IMG/VR virus record: IMGVR_UViG_3300000301_000054
Direction: 5' to 3' (one strand)
Origin: a virus
Lineage: Duplodnaviria > Heunggongvirae > Uroviricota > Caudoviricetes
DNA length: 27,306 nt
Part shown: positions 1 through 6,626 of the stretch, in pieces
Layout: every line of letters starts with the position of its first letter
Position numbering within the stretch: position 1 is the first letter of the stretch
Made by a program: the position numbers and the translations under genes
Notes under the pieces: generated by a model
What the model was told of the DNA's origin: nothing
Database searches by the model: none
What the model saw: only the letters and a program-made list of their open reading frames with translations

Positions 1-339
1 CCTTTTCCCTGTATGGACCGAAGGCTGACCGTAGGGGTGTTACGGGGGGTAAAATCAGGAGTTGAATAAATACGAAAAAGGAGGCGACACCCCTCCTTCC
101 CTCCCCACTTATACATACCTGGCTTCTTCGCTATACATGTTGTGTTTTATTCGTGTTTTATCTGTCTCAACCTCTCTATGGGCGTTAATGCACACTCCTT
201 CCAGAACGTTCTATACGGCGACTAATTCTGTTGGTGAATTGGGTGTGTTGTTTTCTCTGTCGGTGTCTGTGGTTTCGTTCGTTTTGCGGTGGTTCTTCTA
301 TGGGGTGTTCTCGTCGTTTTGGTGATTGTTCTTCTCCGT

Positions 340-735
340 GTATGGAGTAATGGCAGGTGGGCGATTCCTTTCGTTATTGTGTTTGAGTTGTTTGTCTGGA
401 GTGTGTGAAAGGCTTTTGTAGTTATTCGTGTATTGGGTAATGGCGTTTCCCGTGATTGTTATGTTTCGTGTCTTTTGGGATTGAGAGAAACCTTGCGGTT
501 ACAGGCTTCGTTGGGGTTTCAGCGGTTCAGGTGTTTCTTCGCTGTTTGGGTAATGGCGTGTCGTGGGTATCGCGCGTATGAATGTTTTCGGATTGCCTGT
601 GAAAGTTAGGTTGGTTGTCCGGTAGCCTGGGGAGAAGAGGTGGGTCTTTTCGGTAGCCTGGGGAGAAGAGGTGGGTCTTTTCGGTAGCCTGCCATAAAGA
701 GGTTGGTTGTTTTTGGTAATGGCATATGTGTTATT
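340..735. repeat. GT-rich block with a periodic GGTAATGGC-type motif (about 4 copies at roughly 90-170 bp spacing)
   Basis: Motif copies near 349, 437, 549 and 715; plus strand strongly G+T rich, almost no A-runs; no credible ORF. Confidence 0.5.
620..692. repeat. Tandem direct repeat, 31-bp unit CGGTAGCCTGGGGAGAAGAGGTGGGTCTTTT x about 2.3
   Basis: Two perfect copies at 620..650 and 651..681, third partial copy 682..692. Confidence 0.85.
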
Positions 736-1192
736 TAGTTGTTTTGTTANNNNNNNNNNNNNNNNNNNNNNNNNNNNNNNNNNNNNNNNNNNNNNNNNNN
801 NNNNNNNNNNNNNNNNNNNNNNNNNNNNNNNNNNNNNNNNNNNNNNNNNNNNNNNNNNNNNNNNNNNNNNNNNNNNNNNNNNNNNNNNNNNNNNNNNNNN
901 NNNNNNNNNNNNNNNNNNNNNNNNNNNNNNNNNNNNNNNNNNNNNNNNNNNNNNNNAGAATTACGGGTATAAGCAGTGATGTGTGAAAACGTCAATTTTT
1001 TAGACCAAATCGGGTGAAAGCGTTGATGTTTCGTTGATCTGTTATTCAGTTGTTTTCTTATTGGTATAAACAACTGTAACCTATTGATATTTAAGGATGT
1101 GATTCCAGGCATGGAAGGGGAGTAGTGGCGATCAACGGATTCTTATAGAAAAGAATCAAATTGTGACCGCCATTATCAATGAGTTGCAACCG

Positions 1193-1762
1193 TTAGTTGT
1201 TCAGATAAACATTTGGAACACGGACGTAGAAGTTCCTGTCGCCGGTAAGTTCCAGAGTAATGTTAATGTCATTACCATTGTCTAGTGTAGCCGTTGCTCT
1301 ATAGAACTTATCCGTCACCTTGTCCTCTATTGTCACCTTCATACATTTTGGTGCAGTCGAACCGTTATTCTCTTTCAGAATAGTTGTCACGAGAGGGCAG
1401 GCTGCTTCTTCAAGAGCAACCTCGTCCTTGTGTGGGATGCCGATGAAGATAATCCAAGCCAGCGACGCAACGATTATGATAAATGGCACTCTGCTGCCTT
1501 TTGTAATAGTCGCGCGCTTCCAGAGATAGACAGGCAGGAGGAATACCCCCCATAGAATTGAAGGTGGTTCACAGCCAGACTCCGATAGAGCCATTCTGTC
1601 AGCTACTAACAAACCGATGGTAGTTACACCCCCAATTATAATAGCGTAATTGGTATACTCTTCCGGCGATACTCCAAAGAAGAAAGGCATGAACGCTAGA
1701 ATCCACGCATAAATGTTATTCAGAGGTTTTGTTTGTTGGTTCTGGGTTTCCATCACATCCAT
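1193..1762 (-). CDS. Hypothetical membrane protein: four predicted N-terminal TM helices plus about 70-aa C-terminal soluble domain
   Basis: 189-aa ORF; hydrophobic segments IYAWILAFMPFFFGV, YAIIIGGVTTIGLLVA, ILWGVFLLPVYLW, VPFIIIVASLAWIIFIGI; AT-rich promoter-like region upstream (1763..1914). Confidence 0.5.
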   Translation of the reverse strand: MDVMETQNQQTKPLNNIYAWILAFMPFFFGVSPEEYTNYAIIIGGVTTIGLLVADRMALSESGCEPPSILWGVFLLPVYLWKRATITKGSRVPFIIIVASLAWIIFIGIPHKDEVALEEAACPLVTTILKENNGSTAPKCMKVTIEDKVTDKFYRATATLDNGNDINITLELTGDRNFYVRVPNVYLNN

Positions 1763-2675: not shown

Positions 2676-4709
2676 TTACTTAACTTGGTGGCCTGGTTTA
2701 GCACCAGCATCCGGGCTTAACAGGAAGATATCTTTTCCGCCAGGGCCAGCAGCCATCACCATGCCTTCAGAGATACCGAAGCGCATTTTACGCGGAGCCA
2801 GGTTAGCCACCATAATTGTGTGACGACCAATCAGTGCCTGTGGGTCTGGATAAGCAGAACGGATGCCTGAGAAGACATTACGCTTTTCACCACCGAGATC
2901 CAGTGTCAGGCGCAACAGTTTGTCAGAACCTTCAACAAACTCCGCGTTTTCAATCAGCGCCACGCGCAGGTCAACTTTGGCGAAGTCATCAAAGGTGATG
3001 GTTTCCTGAATCGGATCGTCTGCCAGCGGGCCAGTAACTGGCGCGGCAGTGGCTTTCACTTCTTCTTTAGAGGCTTCCACCAGTGCTTCAACCTGCTTCA
3101 TGTCGATGCGGTTATACAGTGCTTTGAACGGATTAACTTTGTGCGCCAGCAGCGGTTGCTGGATGCCATCCCAGGTCAGTTCCGTATTGAGGAATGCTTC
3201 TGCACGCTCGGTCAGTTTCGGCAGTACCGGTTTCAGGTACGTCATCAGTACGCGGAACAGGTTAATGCCCATTGAGCAAATCGCCTGCAGGTCGGCATCG
3301 CGACCTTCCTGTTTCGCCACCACCCACGGAGCCTGTTCATCGACATAGCGGTTAGCCAGGTCAGCCAATGCCATGATTTCACGGATAGCTTTACCAAATT
3401 CACGGCTTTCCCATGCTTCGCCAATCACTTCAGCGGCATCAGTAAAGGTTTTGTACAGTTGCGGGTCAGCCAGTTCGCTTGCCAGCACGCCGTCAAAACG
3501 CTTGTTGATAAAGCCTGCATTACGGGAGGCCAGGTTAACCACTTTGTTCACGATATCGGCATTCACGCGCTGAACGAAATCCTCCAGGTTGAGATCGATA
3601 TCATCAATGCGCGAAGAGAGTTTCGCAGTGTAGTAGTAACGCAGGCTGTCAGCGTCAAAATGATTCAGCCAGGTGCTGGCTTTAATAAAGGTGCCGCGAG
3701 ACTTGGACATCTTCGCGCCGTTCACCGTCACATAGCCGTGAACAAACAGGTTGGTCGGCTTGCGGAAGTTGCTGCCTTCCAGCATGGCAGGCCAGAACAG
3801 GCTGTGGAAGTAAACAATATCTTTACCGATGAAGTGGTACAGCTCGGCGGTGGAGTCTTTCTTCCAGTATTCATCGAAGCTGGTGGTATCGCCGCGCTTG
3901 TCGCACAGATTCTTGAAAGAACCCATGTAGCCAATCGGTGCGTCCAGCCAGACGTAGAAGTATTTGCCTGGTGCGTTCGGAATTTCAAAACCGAAGTAAG
4001 GCGCATCGCGGGAGATATCCCACTGTTGCAGGCCGGATTCAAACCACTCCTGCATTTTGTTTGCCACCTGCTCCTGCAACGCGCCGCTGCGGGTCCATGC
4101 CTGCAACATTTCGCTGAAAGAAGGCAGATCAAAGAAGAAGTGTTCGGAATCACGCATTACCGGGGTAGCGCCAGAAACCACCGATTTCGGCTCGATCAAT
4201 TCAGTCGGGCTATATGTTGCGCCGCAGACTTCACAGTTATCGCCGTATTGATCTGGCGCTTTACATTTCGGGCAGGTGCCTTTTACAAAACGATCCGGCA
4301 GGAACATGCCTTTTTCCGGGTCGTACAACTGAGAGATAGTGCGGTTTTTAATAAAACCGTTCTCTTTCAGGCGAGTATAGATAAGCTCAGACAACTGACG
4401 GTTCTCTTCGCTGTGCGTCGAGTGATAGTTGTCATAGCTGATGTTAAAGCCTGCGAAATCAGTCTGGTGTTCCTGACTCATTTCGCCAATCATCTGCTCC
4501 GGTGTGATACCAAGCTGCTGTGCTTTCAGCATGATCGGCGTACCGTGGGCATCGTCGGCACAGATGAAATTAACCTCGTGGCCGCGCATTCGCTGGTAAC
4601 GAACCCAGACATCAGCCTGGATGTGCTCCAGCATATGGCCGAGGTGGATTGAGCCGTTAGCGTACGGCAGCGCGCACGTCACCAGAATTTTCTTCGCGAC
4701 TTGGGTCAT
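2676..4709 (-). CDS. metG: Methionine--tRNA ligase (677 aa)
   Basis: Translation from [29 protein letters not shown] (class I HIGH motif), KMSKS present, C-terminal tRNA-binding domain; near-identical to enterobacterial MetG as recalled. The ORF-track start at 4838 is a 43-codon upstream extension; ATG at 4707..4709 chosen. Confidence 0.95.
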
Positions 4710-4866
4710 AGTAGGCATTACTTCTTTGTAGTGAAAAGGGGCTTGATAGTAACAAAATGGCCTTATGTCTGCCATGTGATAACAGCATTTCTCATAAATG
4801 ATTAAATGTCGTAGCTGGAGTACACTACAAGGCGACAATTGCGCAAATTAAAATAAAGGAGACGGG

Positions 4867-6126
4867 ATGAGCGAGTCCAAATCGCCGGATGCCCTGAGAG
4901 CAATGGTAGCCGGTACGCTGGCTAATTTTCAGCACCCAACCCTGAAACACAACCTGACTACGCTTAAAGCGTTACACCATGTTGCGTTGATGGATGACAC
5001 ACTGCATGTCGAACTAATCATGCCTTTCGTGTGGAATAAGCCTTTTGAAGACCTGAAAGAGCAATGTAGTGGTGATCTGCTCCGTATCACTGGCGCAAAG
5101 GCTATTGACTGGAAGCTGTCGTACAACATTGCCACGCTTAAGCGCGTCAAAAACCAACCAGGCATTAATGGCGTTAAGAACATTATCGCCGTCAGCTCAG
5201 GCAAGGGCGGCGTGGGTAAATCCTCCACAGCGGTAAACCTGGCACTGGCTTTGGCTGCTGAAGGTGCGAAAGTTGGTATTTTGGATGCCGATATCTACGG
5301 GCCATCAATTCCAACCATGCTTGGNNNNNNNNNNNNNNNNNNNNNNNNNNNNNNNNNNNNNNNNNNNNNNNNNNNNNNNNNNNNNNNNNNNNNNNNNNNN
5401 NNNNNNNNNNNNNNNNNNNNNNNNNNCAACTTCACCGGACGGTACTCACATGGCACCGATTATGTCTCATGGCCTGGCAACCAATTCAATTGGTTATCTG
5501 GTCACTGACGACAATGCGATGGTGTGGCGTGGACCGATGGCCAGCAAGGCGCTGATGCAGATGTTGCAGGAAACACTGTGGCCTGATCTGGACTATCTCG
5601 TTCTCGATATGCCGCCGGGCACTGGTGATATTCAGTTGACGNNNNNNNNNNNNNNNNNNNNNNNNNNNNNNNNNNNNNNNNNNNNNNNNNNNNNNNNNNN
5701 NNNNNNNNNNNNNNNNNNNNNNNNNNNNNNNNNNNNNNNNNNNNNNNNNNNNNNNNNNNNNNNNNNNNCATCGCGCTGATCGATGCGAAGAAAGGCATTG
5801 TGATGTTCGAAAAAGTCGAAGTGCCGGTACTAGGTATCGTCGAAAACATGAGTGTGCATATTTGCAGTAACTGCGGTCATCACGAGCCAATTTTTGGCAC
5901 CGGTGGCGCACAGAAACTGGCCGAGAAATACAACACGCAGTTGTTAGGCCAAATGCCTCTTCATATCTCTCTTCGTGAAGATCTGGATAACGGAACACCA
6001 ACCGTTATTAGTCGTCCAGATAGCGAATTTACGGCTATTTATCGTGACCTCGCAGATCGCGTTGCTGCCCAAATGTATTGGCAAGGTGAAGTAATACCTG
6101 GCGAAATCGCATTCCGCGCAGTGTGA
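4867..6126 (+). CDS. apbC: Fe-S cluster carrier ATPase ApbC/Mrp (interrupted by N runs 5325..5426 and 5642..5768)
   Basis: Three segments read [16 protein letters not shown]...[21 protein letters not shown] (deviant Walker A), [15 protein letters not shown]...[12 protein letters not shown], and ...[16 protein letters not shown]...EIAFRAV; segments fall in different frames only because of the N runs. Confidence 0.9.
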
Positions 6127-6163: not shown

Positions 6164-6626
6164 CTACATCACGGGACAATCATCAAACTCGCCACTTCTT
6201 GCGTCGTTGATAATGTGAGTGATCACACCAAACACGGCATTGCTGCCCGTGCATCCATCGTCATCCTTTGGCAATGCTTCCTTCTTACCGGTTCTTAAAT
6301 CCTCCAGATGCTGACGTGGGTACTTCCGGTATCTTTTTNNNNNNNNNNNNNNNNNNNNNNNNNNNNNNNNNNNNNNNNNNNNNNNNNNNNNNNNNNNNNN
6401 NNNNNNNNNNNNNGCGATATTCCCCATCCAGAGCGCATACAAGCAGAGAACCATCAACCGGGGTAAGTGAGGAATCGACCACCAGCAATGCACCCTGTAA
6501 TATTCCCTCACGATGATGACTATCAGCTGCCCTCATGAAGTAGGTCGCTGAAGGATGTCTAATTATCTGCTGATCAAGAGAAATACGGCTCTCAGCATAA
6601 TCCGCCGCAGGAGAAGGGAAGCCCAT
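6164..6626 (-). CDS. UmuD'-like S24-peptidase-domain protein, N-terminally truncated at the position of the UmuD cleavage site (interrupted by N run 6339..6413)
   Basis: Starts MGFPSPAADYAESRISLDQQIIRHPSATYF...LLVVDSSLTPVDGSLLVCALDGEY, aligning to UmuD from Gly25 onward; C-terminal segment ...AVFGVITHIINDA matches the UmuD C-terminus; SD AAGAGG upstream. Confidence 0.7.

What the first reader, a model, noticed from the sequence alone, without database searches (positions are those of the whole stretch)
1..1192. Strand-asymmetric GT-rich repetitive block with a 31-bp tandem repeat and about 100-bp periodic motif
About 750 nt with no credible ORF, extreme G+T bias on the plus strand (C+A on the minus strand, the strand of the adjacent genes), tandem 31-mers at 620..692, a recurring GGTAATGGC motif, and a 207-nt N run (750..956) probably hiding more copies. 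A C-rich, G-poor minus-strand transcript is the classic signature of a Rho utilisation region; alternatives are a satellite or iteron array or a packaging or recombination site.
Basis: seen in the sequence. Interest (0 to 1): 0.5.

Follow-up and report, generated by a model that had tools for sequence, protein, structure and literature searches.

The report
Conserved Rho-trap-like spacer in SSU5 phage-plasmids
This is a real, strongly conserved, roughly 1 kb non-coding stretch found in all enterobacterial SSU5-type phage-plasmids; on the gene strand it would give the most C-over-G-skewed and least folded RNA of the genome stretches scanned, so it most likely stops transcription through the host factor Rho, between a variable cargo hotspot and a block of small phage genes.

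Summary
The window comes from an E. coli SSU5-like phage-plasmid, about 97% identical to phage Cyrano/pLF82.

**Observation.** It is real but needs trimming.
- The skewed block runs from about 169 to 1242. Bases 1-168 have the opposite skew.
- The 31-mers and the GTAATGGC motif are real.
- The N run hides about 127 nt in relatives, with no further repeat copies.

**Properties of the block.**
- It is not coding, matches no Rfam family and does not fold stably on either strand.
- It is conserved in 838 plasmids. Cyrano and SSU5 share 68% identity here, against 34-43% at four-fold sites of most core genes (46% pooled).
- Its base composition is the same in every lineage.
- On the gene strand it is the largest C>G bubble in about 98 kb: 949 nt, 15,758 %·bp.
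- It also holds the least-structured RNA windows.
- Published LF82 expression data show a 10-80-fold drop directly after the upstream cargo gene.

**Best reading (confidence 0.4).** It is an oversized Rho-dependent transcription barrier. An oppositely oriented C-rich repeat array and, in two lineages, an intrinsic terminator back it up.

**What this does not explain.** The motif-level conservation is unaccounted for, so a sequence-specific factor or a cis-acting DNA role remains open.

The parts
1..24 (+). Last unit (CCTTTTCCCTG...) of an array of about six C-rich repeats, CCAGCC(G/T)TTTCCC. The units are spaced 22-30 nt apart and the array lies mostly just left of the window start ('module L').
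   Evidence: Repeat search and alignment of nine relatives. C>G on the + strand is +18 to +24%.
60..168 (+). Short C-rich stretch on the + strand (CCCCTCCTTCCCTCCCC...). The skew changes sign at about 170.
   Evidence: 78-nt sliding %C-%G profile.
75..101 (-). Intrinsic-terminator-like hairpin with a U-rich tail on the gene strand (GGGAAGGAGGGGTGTCGCCTCCTTTTT CGTATTTATT).
   Evidence: Terminator scans. The Klebsiella lineage keeps it through an A-T to T-A compensatory pair. It is not detected in the pHCM2/SSU5 lineage.
104..114 (.). Nearly invariant box CCCACTTATAC.
   Evidence: Alignments A1 and the 19-sequence alignment.
169..1242 (-). Continuous C>=G, CA-rich, untranslated and unstructured stretch on the gene strand. 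This is the predicted Rho loading and termination zone.
   Evidence: Bubble analysis, folding energies and conserved composition in seven lineages.
205..222 (.). Invariant box CG(T/C)TCTATACGGCGA at the left edge of the skewed block. A similar CTCT(A/G)TACCGG box heads module L.
   Evidence: Alignments.
326..354 (+). Copy 1 of the 27-29-nt repeat GTTCTTCTCCGTGTATGGAGTAATGGC. It is the best-conserved patch, 82-90% identical between the deep lineages.
416..444 (+). Copy 2 of the repeat ending in GTAATGGC.
529..557 (+). Copy 3 of the repeat ending in GTAATGGC.
697..723 (+). Copy 4 of the repeat ending in GTAATGGC.
589..712 (+). Array of four 31-nt units, GGT(A/T)GCCTG-N5-AAGAGGT(G/T)GGT. One is degenerate, two are identical and one is diverged. 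Read on the gene strand the unit is C-rich (AAAAGACCCACCUCUUCUCCCCAGGCUACCG).
   Evidence: A second array in the same orientation lies 3.6 kb further along the gene strand, upstream of CYRAN_111, in all four genomes checked (three lineages). That site is the second-largest gene-strand C>G bubble. Copy number is polymorphic.
750..956 (.). N run. Relatives have 127 nt here, holding a half-degenerate AAACAAnTTGTTT box and the conserved block AACGCAACGGGAGCG, and no further repeat copies.
985..1038 (.). Cluster of CGTTGA(C/T) boxes. GAAAACGTCAA (985-995) is inverted relative to CGTTGAT (1021-1027 and 1032-1038). The arms vary without compensation, so these look like protein sites rather than a hairpin.
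1040..1081 (-). Degenerate copy of the promoter and leader cassette that precedes each neighbouring small gene (ATCAAGAAAACAAC...). It has no convincing -10 element, no Shine-Dalgarno sequence and no ATG. It includes the inverted repeat CAGTTGTTT / AAACAACTG.
   Evidence: Alignment A3 and leader-box statistics.
1127..1171 (-). Conserved boundary stem-loop just past the cargo gene's stop codon. The outer stem is GGCGGUCA/UGAUCGCC and the inner stem is GAUUCUU/AAGAAUC. The outer stem is complete only in the gene-strand RNA, where a G·U pair replaces what would be an A·C mismatch on the other strand.
   Evidence: Read from the sequence; coordinates; variants in 18 relatives.
1193..1762 (-). Variable cargo gene (189 aa, PHROG 12486, function unknown) whose transcript runs into the block.
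   Evidence: The neighbour at this position differs between lineages.

Best explanation
**What it is.** The block is a conserved, non-coding transcription barrier. Transcripts leaving the variable cargo hotspot on the gene strand (window minus strand) pass a conserved stem-loop. They then enter about 1 kb of untranslated, CA-rich RNA that is G- and U-poor and essentially unfolded.

**How it most likely works.** Rho can load on that naked C>G RNA and release RNA polymerase. In the E. coli and Klebsiella lineages an intrinsic terminator at 101->75 catches what gets through. Immediately beyond it the skew flips. A C-rich repeat array on the other strand (window 1-24 and further left) should do the same to transcripts arriving from the opposite direction. 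Together they would insulate the small-gene cassettes, each with its own promoter, from whatever cargo sits in the hotspot.

**Shown.**
- The composition, its uniqueness in the genome and its conservation.
- The lack of coding capacity and of stable fold.
- The second 31-mer array sitting at another C>G bubble.
- The drop in expression in LF82.

**Inferred.**
- That Rho causes that drop.
- That the function is insulation.
- That the conserved motifs (GCCAUUAC units, 31-mers) are recognised by something specific.
For: 1. The block is the largest C>G bubble on either strand in about 98 kb of Cyrano: 949 nt, 15,758 %·bp, with a maximum %C-%G of 29. It is also the only large bubble on the sense strand. 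It is the largest in SSU5 too and more than twice any bubble in the P1 and pMT1 control halves.
2. In Nadiras et al. 2018 every template with a bubble longer than 78 bp or larger than 700 %·bp terminated with Rho. In that study %CA, %AAC, %ACA and %CAC are among the descriptors that best distinguish the Rho-termination classes.
3. Eight of the ten least-structured 200-nt RNA windows of 48 kb lie here, at -10 to -28 kcal/mol against a mean of -50 ± 9.5. Neither strand folds better than shuffled sequence.
4. The region is untranslated.
5. The second-largest gene-strand bubble is the other site that carries the 31-mer array, and it too lies between two co-directional transcription units.
6. In the LF82 expression table CYRAN_102 reads log2 5.6-9.2. 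CYRAN_103, which starts 110 nt downstream, reads 2.3-4.3 in all ten samples. No intrinsic terminator is predicted between them.
7. In most lineages the flanking cargo gene is co-directional and reads into the block.
8. The skew flips sign at about window 170, next to the terminator hairpin.
Against: - Composition alone does not need this much sequence conservation. Cyrano and SSU5 are 68% identical here, against 34-43% at four-fold sites of most core genes (46% pooled) and about 30% expected from composition. Invariant motifs recur.
- Correctly spaced YC chains are no more frequent than in control sequence, and YC dimers are only about 30% above the control mean.
- The block is roughly ten times longer than a canonical rut site.
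- The LF82 data are per gene, their strandedness is unknown to me, and they cover lysogeny only.
- The intrinsic terminator is missing in the SSU5/pHCM2 lineage.
- In Klebsiella the nearest cargo genes read away from the block.
- No experiment has tested Rho dependence.
Confidence: 0.4

Rival explanations
1. The block is a cis-acting DNA platform. Arrays of protein-binding sites (31-mers at three helical turns, 22-nt C-rich repeats, CGTTGAY boxes, GTAATGGC units) would serve phage-specific DNA transactions. Examples are a lytic-replication origin or enhancer, possibly primed by an R-loop, or looping between the two 31-mer arrays that bracket the small-gene cluster.
For: - Several repeat families recur and are conserved at motif level.
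- The 31-nt and 22-nt spacings fit whole helical turns.
- The arms of the CGTTGAY inverted repeat vary without compensation, as protein sites do.
- The element encodes its own replisome plus UvsW and RNase H homologues.
- The local skew switches sign in the way it does at an origin.
- The block is present in essentially every enterobacterial SSU5-type element, matching terminase counts genus by genus.
Against: - Binding to double-stranded DNA does not explain 900 nt of strand-specific composition.
- There are no conserved DnaA or IHF sites and no conserved AT-rich unwinding element.
- RepA and its own, different iterons lie 33 kb away.
- Y. pestis pMT1 has lost the whole segment and still replicates and segregates as a plasmid.
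- No promoter is found that would drive G-rich transcripts outward.
- GTAATGGC spacings are not helically phased.
Confidence: 0.22
2. The block is the gene for a long CA-rich non-coding RNA of about 0.9-1 kb. It would be made during lytic growth and act in trans. It could be a sponge for an RNA-binding protein that recognises the repeated GCCAUUAC or GAGAAGAAC units, or a decoy that ties up Rho itself.
For: - The layout resembles the neighbouring gene cassettes: a leader-like start at 1040-1081, a body, and a terminator at 101->75.
- A short motif is repeated 4-6 times on one strand only.
- Sequence conservation is far above neutral.
- The RNA would be unfolded and accessible.
Against: - The putative promoter has lost its extended -10 element, and none is detected in any lineage.
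- The terminator is absent in the SSU5/pHCM2 lineage.
- Expression is at floor level in all ten LF82 samples.
- A naked C>G RNA should itself be cut short by Rho.
- There is no enrichment of Hfq (ARN)n tracts.
- There is no resemblance to the fliC leader bound by FljA-type repressors.
- There is no Rfam match.
Confidence: 0.13
3. The block is a decaying remnant of former gene cassettes, or an assembly or low-complexity artefact, and has no function.
For: - It contains degenerate copies of the small-gene promoter and leader.
- The window carries many N runs.
Against: - It is conserved well above neutral and more than the adjacent small genes, which are 60-63% identical.
- Its composition is the same in seven lineages.
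- It is present in 838 plasmids and 237 complete E. coli genomes.
Confidence: 0.03
4. The block encodes an unusual Thr/Pro/Lys/Asn-rich protein on the minus strand, or a small hydrophobic protein on the plus strand.
For: - Stop-free stretches on the minus strand reach 227 codons in some relatives.
- Authors of the Cyrano, PhiR41_1 and SSU5 records annotated hypothetical CDSs here.
Against: - Those stretches break at different places in 92-96% identical relatives.
- Indels of 1, 10 and 20 nt occur.
- PGAP never calls a gene here.
- Long open frames are expected by chance in T- and G-poor sequence.
- The plus-strand frame at the right edge is interrupted by stops in the E. coli lineage.
Confidence: 0.02

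Closest known systems
Rho-dependent terminators and rut sites (for example lambda tR1 and trp t'; the C>G bubble model of Alifano et al. and Nadiras et al. 2018)
   Same: An untranslated, unstructured, CA-rich stretch with C>G on the transcribed sense strand, placed directly after a stop codon. RNA abundance falls abruptly across it.
   Different: - About ten times longer than a canonical rut of roughly 80 nt.
- Conserved at sequence and motif level across genera.
- Carries tandem and dispersed repeats.
- Paired back to back with an oppositely oriented C-rich array.
- YC spacing is not enriched.
- Rho dependence is untested.
Iteron-type replication and control regions (P4 ori/crr, lambda ori, P1 incA/incC)
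   Same: A non-coding region with several families of direct repeats, some spaced at whole helical turns. An 8-bp motif is embedded in degenerate longer repeats, as in P4 crr.
   Different: - No cognate initiator gene next to it.
- The RepA iterons are a different sequence and lie 33 kb away.
- No DnaA or IHF sites and no conserved unwinding element.
- Dispensable for plasmid replication in pMT1.
- Extreme strand skew, which origins of this type do not need.
Protein-sponge RNAs (CsrB/RsmZ, and Pseudomonas CrcZ with its A-rich 'CA motifs')
   Same: Long, non-coding, largely single-stranded RNA with one short motif repeated on one strand.
   Different: - No GGA-in-loop or AANAANAA/(ARN)n enrichment.
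- No recognisable promoter.
- Silent in lysogeny.
- No binding partner is known.
Type III toxin-antitoxin antitoxin repeats (ToxI-like tandem repeats of 34-36 nt)
   Same: Short tandem repeats of about 31 nt whose copy number varies between strains.
   Different: - Only 2-4 units.
- No adjacent endoribonuclease toxin gene.
- No promoter-repeat-terminator-toxin layout.
- A second array sits in another intergenic spacer.

Membership tests
Rho-dependent terminator / rut region | Uninterrupted C>G bubble of at least about 78 nt on the non-template strand | tested here: met
   949 nt and 15,758 %·bp in Cyrano; 169-1242 in the window. It is also the largest bubble in SSU5.
Rho-dependent terminator / rut region | RNA largely free of secondary structure | tested here: met
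   200-nt windows fold at -10 to -28 kcal/mol, against a mean of -50 ± 9.5. The z-score against shuffles is -0.8.
Rho-dependent terminator / rut region | Not covered by translating ribosomes | tested here: met
   No conserved ORF on either strand and no PGAP gene in nine plasmids fetched.
Rho-dependent terminator / rut region | At least one chain of four or more YC dimers spaced 9-13 nt | tested here: inconclusive
   Chains of up to 7 are present, but they are no more frequent than in control pieces of the same genome.
Rho-dependent terminator / rut region | Transcripts end in or just after the region | tested here: inconclusive
   Per-gene LF82 data show a 10-80-fold drop from CYRAN_102 to CYRAN_103. 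No 3'-end mapping is available.
Rho-dependent terminator / rut region | Termination depends on Rho (bicyclomycin or rho mutants; purified Rho in vitro) | not testable with these tools
   No such data were found in the papers searched.
Iteron-type plasmid origin or copy-control locus | Repeats match the iterons of the element's initiator and lie next to its gene | tested here: not met
   The RepA iterons CTCTCTATAGTGGATA flank repA 33 kb away. The block's motifs do not occur there.
Iteron-type plasmid origin or copy-control locus | Required for plasmid replication or maintenance | tested here: not met
   pMT1 of Y. pestis lacks the whole segment. The block is kept in a plasmid typed to a different replicon cluster.
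Iteron-type plasmid origin or copy-control locus | AT-rich unwinding element with DnaA and/or IHF sites | tested here: not met
   No conserved DnaA box or IHF site in three lineages.
Structured or curated non-coding RNA family | Match to an Rfam model, or a fold more stable than shuffled sequence | tested here: not met
   No credible Rfam hit. Fold z-scores are -0.8 and +2.4.
Protein-sponge RNA (Csr/Rsm, CrcZ/Hfq type) | Own promoter and terminator, abundant transcript, enrichment of the partner's binding motif | tested here: not met
   No promoter is found. Expression is at floor level in lysogeny. (ARN)n tracts are not enriched.
Type III toxin-antitoxin (ToxIN-like) | Tandem repeat array immediately upstream of an endoribonuclease toxin gene | tested here: not met
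   No ORF follows the array. The neighbours are unknown-function PHROGs with no toxin domain.

The most novel reading that the evidence does not exclude
The block is a switchable 'Rho trap'. It would be a dedicated module kept in every enterobacterial SSU5-type phage-plasmid, whose repeated GCCAUUAC and 31-nt units are read by a phage- or host-encoded factor. That factor would coat the naked RNA and so open or close the barrier between lysogeny and lytic growth. Alternatively the RNA, once made in bulk, would titrate Rho. Either would be a protein- or RNA-based control of Rho unlike the nut/put systems or Psu.
Probability: 0.12. Interest if true: 0.75.

Novelty: new variant of a known kind. 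Interest (0 to 1): 0.45.

Why it matters
SSU5-type phage-plasmids are common in clinical Enterobacteriaceae. Examples are pHCM2 of S. Typhi, pKPHS1-like plasmids of K. pneumoniae and pLF82/Cyrano. The block itself sits on a plasmid in 237 of 5,426 complete E. coli genomes.

These elements carry defence systems and resistance genes in a variable hotspot, and the block sits exactly at that hotspot's conserved edge. It is unannotated or mis-annotated as hypothetical CDSs in every record examined here.

If it is a built-in insulator, it would explain how very different cargo can be swapped in without disturbing neighbouring phage genes. It would also be a compact, portable and very strong terminator module.

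If the conserved motifs turn out to be read by a specific factor, it would be a new way of regulating Rho-dependent termination.

Tried and rejected
- **Coding, either strand.** Frames are not conserved, indels are not multiples of three, and PGAP makes no call.
- **Known RNA family or stable fold.** None found.
- **Chi-site cluster.** No GCTGGTGG lies in the block.
- **DnaA, IHF or Dam features of an origin.** None is conserved.
- **Plasmid origin or copy control.** The RepA iterons differ and lie 33 kb away, and pMT1 lacks the block.
- **Mimic of the fliC leader.** The element encodes an FljA-like repressor, but alignment scores equal those of shuffled sequence.
- **Hfq sponge.** (ARN)n tracts are not enriched.
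- **Hairpin from the AAAACGTCAAC/GTTGAC inverted repeat.** The arms vary without compensation.
- **More repeat copies hidden in the N run.** Relatives show none.
- **Assembly artefact.** The three-copy 31-mer form is present in four complete plasmids.
- **Sigma-70 promoters.** None is detected inside the block in three lineages.
- **Motif scan of viral contigs.** Of the 89 loci returned, only 19 showed blastn similarity to the region; these are the SSU5-like relatives.
- **Scan of species-representative genomes.** It returned only Buttiauxella plus two contigs labelled Bacillota MAG and Catenulispora that match the region; I read those as probable contamination, which was not tested.
- **Literature searches.** No description of this element was found. 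One listed preprint could not be opened.
Full report
**Where the window comes from.** Window 1-749 is 95-97% identical to Escherichia phage Cyrano (= plasmid pLF82), PhiR41_1 and CMS-2020a. It matches Salmonella phage SSU5 more weakly. The window is therefore part of an E. coli SSU5-type phage-plasmid. In Cyrano almost all genes from CYRAN_64 to CYRAN_111 lie on one strand, which is the window's minus strand.

**Checking the observation.**
- Window 201-749 is 33% G, 40% T, 14% A and 13% C on the + strand. GC skew reaches +0.41 to +0.57.
- Across about 98 kb of Cyrano this is the single most asymmetric stretch. C+A on the gene strand reaches 0.76, against 0.50 ± 0.039.
- The 31-nt tandem repeat is real: 620-650 and 651-681 are identical, 682-712 is 74% identical and 589-619 is degenerate.
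- Four complete E. coli plasmids carry the same three-copy form and most others carry two. It is therefore a natural copy-number polymorphism.
- GTAATGGC occurs four times, all on the + strand inside the block, against 0.71 expected for the whole window.
- Three corrections are needed:
  1. The skewed block spans about 169-1242, and window 60-168 has the opposite skew.
  2. The motif spacing is 90, 113 and 166 nt. In relatives there are six copies at 41-142 nt, forming degenerate two-part units of about 90 nt.
  3. The N run does not hide more copies. Cyrano and pCTX have 127 nt there, with neither motif. In all five N runs compared, the run is 73-85 nt longer than the sequence it replaces.

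**It is not coding and not a known or structured RNA.**
- PGAP annotates no gene in this 1.1-1.4 kb gap in nine plasmids fetched from six genera.
- The hypothetical CDSs placed here in Cyrano, PhiR41_1 and SSU5 differ in position and strand.
- Stop-free stretches on either strand start and end at different places in 92-96% identical relatives.
- The alignment has indels of 1, 10 and 20 nt.
- A recurrent plus-strand frame at the right edge is broken by stops in the E. coli lineage.
- Rfam gives nothing credible.
- Neither strand folds better than shuffled sequence, with z-scores of -0.8 and +2.4.

**It is under selection.**
- blastn finds the region in 838 PLSDB plasmids: Klebsiella 430, Escherichia 224, Enterobacter 90, Salmonella 49, Citrobacter 25, Cronobacter 9 and Shigella 7.
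- Genus by genus, apart from Klebsiella, these counts match those of the terminase gene: Escherichia 206, Enterobacter 91, Salmonella 49, Citrobacter 25, Cronobacter 10 and Shigella 7. In Klebsiella the region is found in more records (430) than the terminase gene (342), partly because large non-SSU5 plasmids carry only its right-hand part.
- It is on a plasmid, and never on the chromosome, in 237 of 5,426 complete E. coli genomes.
- Cyrano and SSU5 are 68% identical across the region. Identity at four-fold degenerate sites is 34-43% in most core genes, 46% pooled over the ten genes compared. It is 37% in the adjacent small genes, which are themselves only 60-63% identical.
- Conservation is patchy. 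It peaks at window 329-368, 623-662, 720-800, 879-958 and 1034-1073.
- Base composition is the same in seven lineages: A .13-.15, C .13-.19, G .32-.34 and T .34-.41.
- Both composition and particular motifs are therefore maintained. A decaying relic is excluded.

**Anatomy, read on the gene strand from right to left in window coordinates.**
1. A variable cargo gene, 1193-1762 here, PHROG 12486 of unknown function.
   - Other lineages carry different genes at this position.
   - Their neighbours include DUF262 with a type I restriction system in Klebsiella.
2. A conserved boundary stem-loop at 1127-1171. Its outer stem is complete only in the gene-strand RNA, where G·U replaces A·C.
3. A degenerate copy of the promoter and leader cassette that precedes each neighbouring small gene (1040-1081). 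It lacks a convincing -10 element, a Shine-Dalgarno sequence and an ATG.
4. A cluster of CGTTGA(C/T) boxes whose inverted arms vary without compensation.
5. The N run.
6. The 31-mer array at 589-712.
7. The CA-rich body with GCCAUUAC units.
8. An invariant box at 205-222.
9. A poorly conserved spacer.
10. An intrinsic-terminator-like hairpin at 101->75.
   - It is kept in the Klebsiella lineage through a compensatory A-T to T-A pair.
   - It is not detectable in the SSU5/pHCM2 lineage.
11. Mostly beyond the window's left end, about six C-rich repeats CCAGCC(G/T)TTTCCC spaced 22-30 nt apart on the other strand. The extended -10 promoter of the next small gene follows them.

**Evidence for a Rho-dependent barrier.**
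- I used the 78-nt C>G bubble definition of Nadiras et al. 2018 (PMC6144790).
- By that definition the gene strand forms one uninterrupted bubble of 949 nt with an area of 15,758 %·bp. That is 2.7 times the next largest on either strand, and it is the only large bubble on the sense strand.
- In that study every template with a bubble longer than 78 bp or larger than 700 %·bp terminated with Rho in vitro. CA, AAC, ACA and CAC content are among the descriptors that best distinguish the Rho-termination classes.
- In SSU5 the bubble is split in two, 4,549 plus 8,427 %·bp, but is still the largest. The top bubbles in the P1 and pMT1 control halves are 7,151 and 4,931 %·bp; in P1 the largest one lies opposite annotated genes.
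- Eight of the ten least-structured 200-nt RNA windows in 48 kb of gene strand lie in the block.
- Another of those ten is the CYRAN_110/111 spacer. That spacer carries the only other 31-mer array, in the same orientation in the four genomes checked (Cyrano, SSU5, pKPHS1 and viral contig L047). It is also the second-largest gene-strand bubble.
- In the published LF82 expression table CYRAN_102 reads log2 5.6-9.2. CYRAN_103, which starts 110 nt downstream and covers window about 606-1072, stays at 2.3-4.3 in all ten samples. No intrinsic terminator is predicted in between.
- The skew flips sign at about window 170. Module L is C>G on the opposite strand at +18 to +24%, which fits a barrier that works from both sides.

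**What this reading does not explain.**
- A rut needs composition, not 68% identity with invariant 8-30-nt motifs.
- Chains of YC dimers with Rho-compatible spacing are no more frequent than in control sequence.
- The block is about ten times the canonical rut length.
- The expression data are per gene and from lysogens only.
- Something sequence-specific is therefore probably superimposed on the barrier. I could not identify it.

**Rivals.**
- Plasmid origin or copy-control locus: disfavoured.
  - RepA and its own iterons (CTCTCTATAGTGGATA) are 33 kb away.
  - No DnaA or IHF sites are conserved.
  - A plasmid typed to another replicon cluster keeps the block.
  - Y. pestis pMT1 has lost the whole segment, from the RNR genes to the CYRAN_109 homologue, at an IS1541 junction. 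It is still a stable plasmid.
- Lytic origin or another DNA platform: still possible, but it leaves the strand skew unexplained.
- Trans-acting CA-rich RNA: weakened by several results.
  - There is no promoter.
  - Expression is at floor level in lysogeny.
  - There is no Hfq-type (ARN)n enrichment.
  - There is no similarity to the fliC leader, although the element encodes an FljA-family repressor.

**Comparison with what is known, and verdict.**
- The block works most like a Rho-dependent terminator. It meets the compositional, structural and translational criteria of that class. Direct tests of transcript ends and of Rho dependence are missing.
- It differs in length, in sequence conservation, in its repeat content and in its back-to-back arrangement with an opposite-strand C-rich array.
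- I found no description of it in the papers searched.
- I rate it a new variant of a known kind, with interest 0.45 and confidence 0.4 in the barrier reading.
- The most novel reading the evidence still allows is a factor-controlled Rho trap or a Rho decoy (probability about 0.12).

Noticed in passing
window 2527(-), 2575(+), 10181(+), 15078(-), 15807(-), 26515(-); Cyrano L014, 16 sites: A near-palindromic box AAGAAAACAAnTTGTTTA sits 10-30 nt upstream of many start codons. There are 7 in the window against 0.21 expected, and 16 in 48 kb of Cyrano against 0.44 expected. It looks like a shared operator or translational control site of the phage-plasmid.
   Followed up: partly
L001 2990-3090 (Cyrano 98,254-98,457, upstream of CYRAN_111); L003:71, L004:617, L047:592: A second array of 31-mer-like units lies in the same orientation, 3.6 kb further along the gene strand. 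The two arrays bracket the small-gene cluster CYRAN_105-110. The second site is also the second-largest gene-strand C>G bubble.
   Followed up: partly
L001 5840-6010, immediately left of window position 1: About six C-rich repeats CCAGCC(G/T)TTTCCC spaced 22-30 nt apart, conserved in all lineages. The window starts inside the last unit.
   Followed up: partly
L001 42-563 (CYRAN_114, about 5.5 kb left of the window): The 'transcriptional regulator' is a clear member of the FljA family (Pfam Flag1_repress, E = 1e-80) with a weak Hfq-like C-terminal hit. The phage-plasmid may therefore repress host flagellin synthesis.
   Followed up: partly
window N runs at 750-956, 2046-2129, 5322-5426, 5642-5768 and 6339-6413: Compared with the closest relative pCTX, these runs stand for only 127, 6, 20, 53 and 2 nt. 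Each run overstates the missing sequence by about 73-85 nt, so window coordinates are inflated.
   Followed up: yes
right of window 1192; L004, L005, L006, L010, L013: The position just right of the block is a cargo hotspot, and the same conserved edge borders different genes in each lineage.
- E. coli: unknown-function genes.
- Klebsiella: DUF262 with a type I restriction-modification system.
- pTB212: a DUF4145 protein two genes away.
- Enterobacter: a GIY-YIG nuclease one gene away.
- Large non-SSU5 Klebsiella plasmids: only the right part of the block plus DUF262 and the restriction system, next to IS elements.
   Followed up: partly
L111 (Y. pestis pMT1) 37,884-38,751: pMT1 has lost the whole segment from the RNR genes to the CYRAN_109 homologue, including this block, with IS1541 at the junction.
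   Followed up: yes
window 2676-4838(-) and 4867 onward(+): The phage-plasmid carries a methionyl-tRNA synthetase gene (metG) and an ApbC/Mrp-type P-loop ATPase gene. In LF82 the ATPase is expressed in lysogeny.
   Followed up: no
L001 2400-5720 (small genes CYRAN_105-111): Each small gene is a self-contained cassette. It has an extended -10 promoter (TGnGATAAT), the leader box, a Shine-Dalgarno sequence, the ORF and a GC-rich hairpin. All the products are unknown-function PHROGs.
   Followed up: partly
L014 100-2500 (Cyrano repA region): About 20 copies of the iteron CTCTCTATAGTGGATA, spaced about 21 bp apart, lie on both sides of repA. This resembles the P1 incC/incA layout.
   Followed up: no
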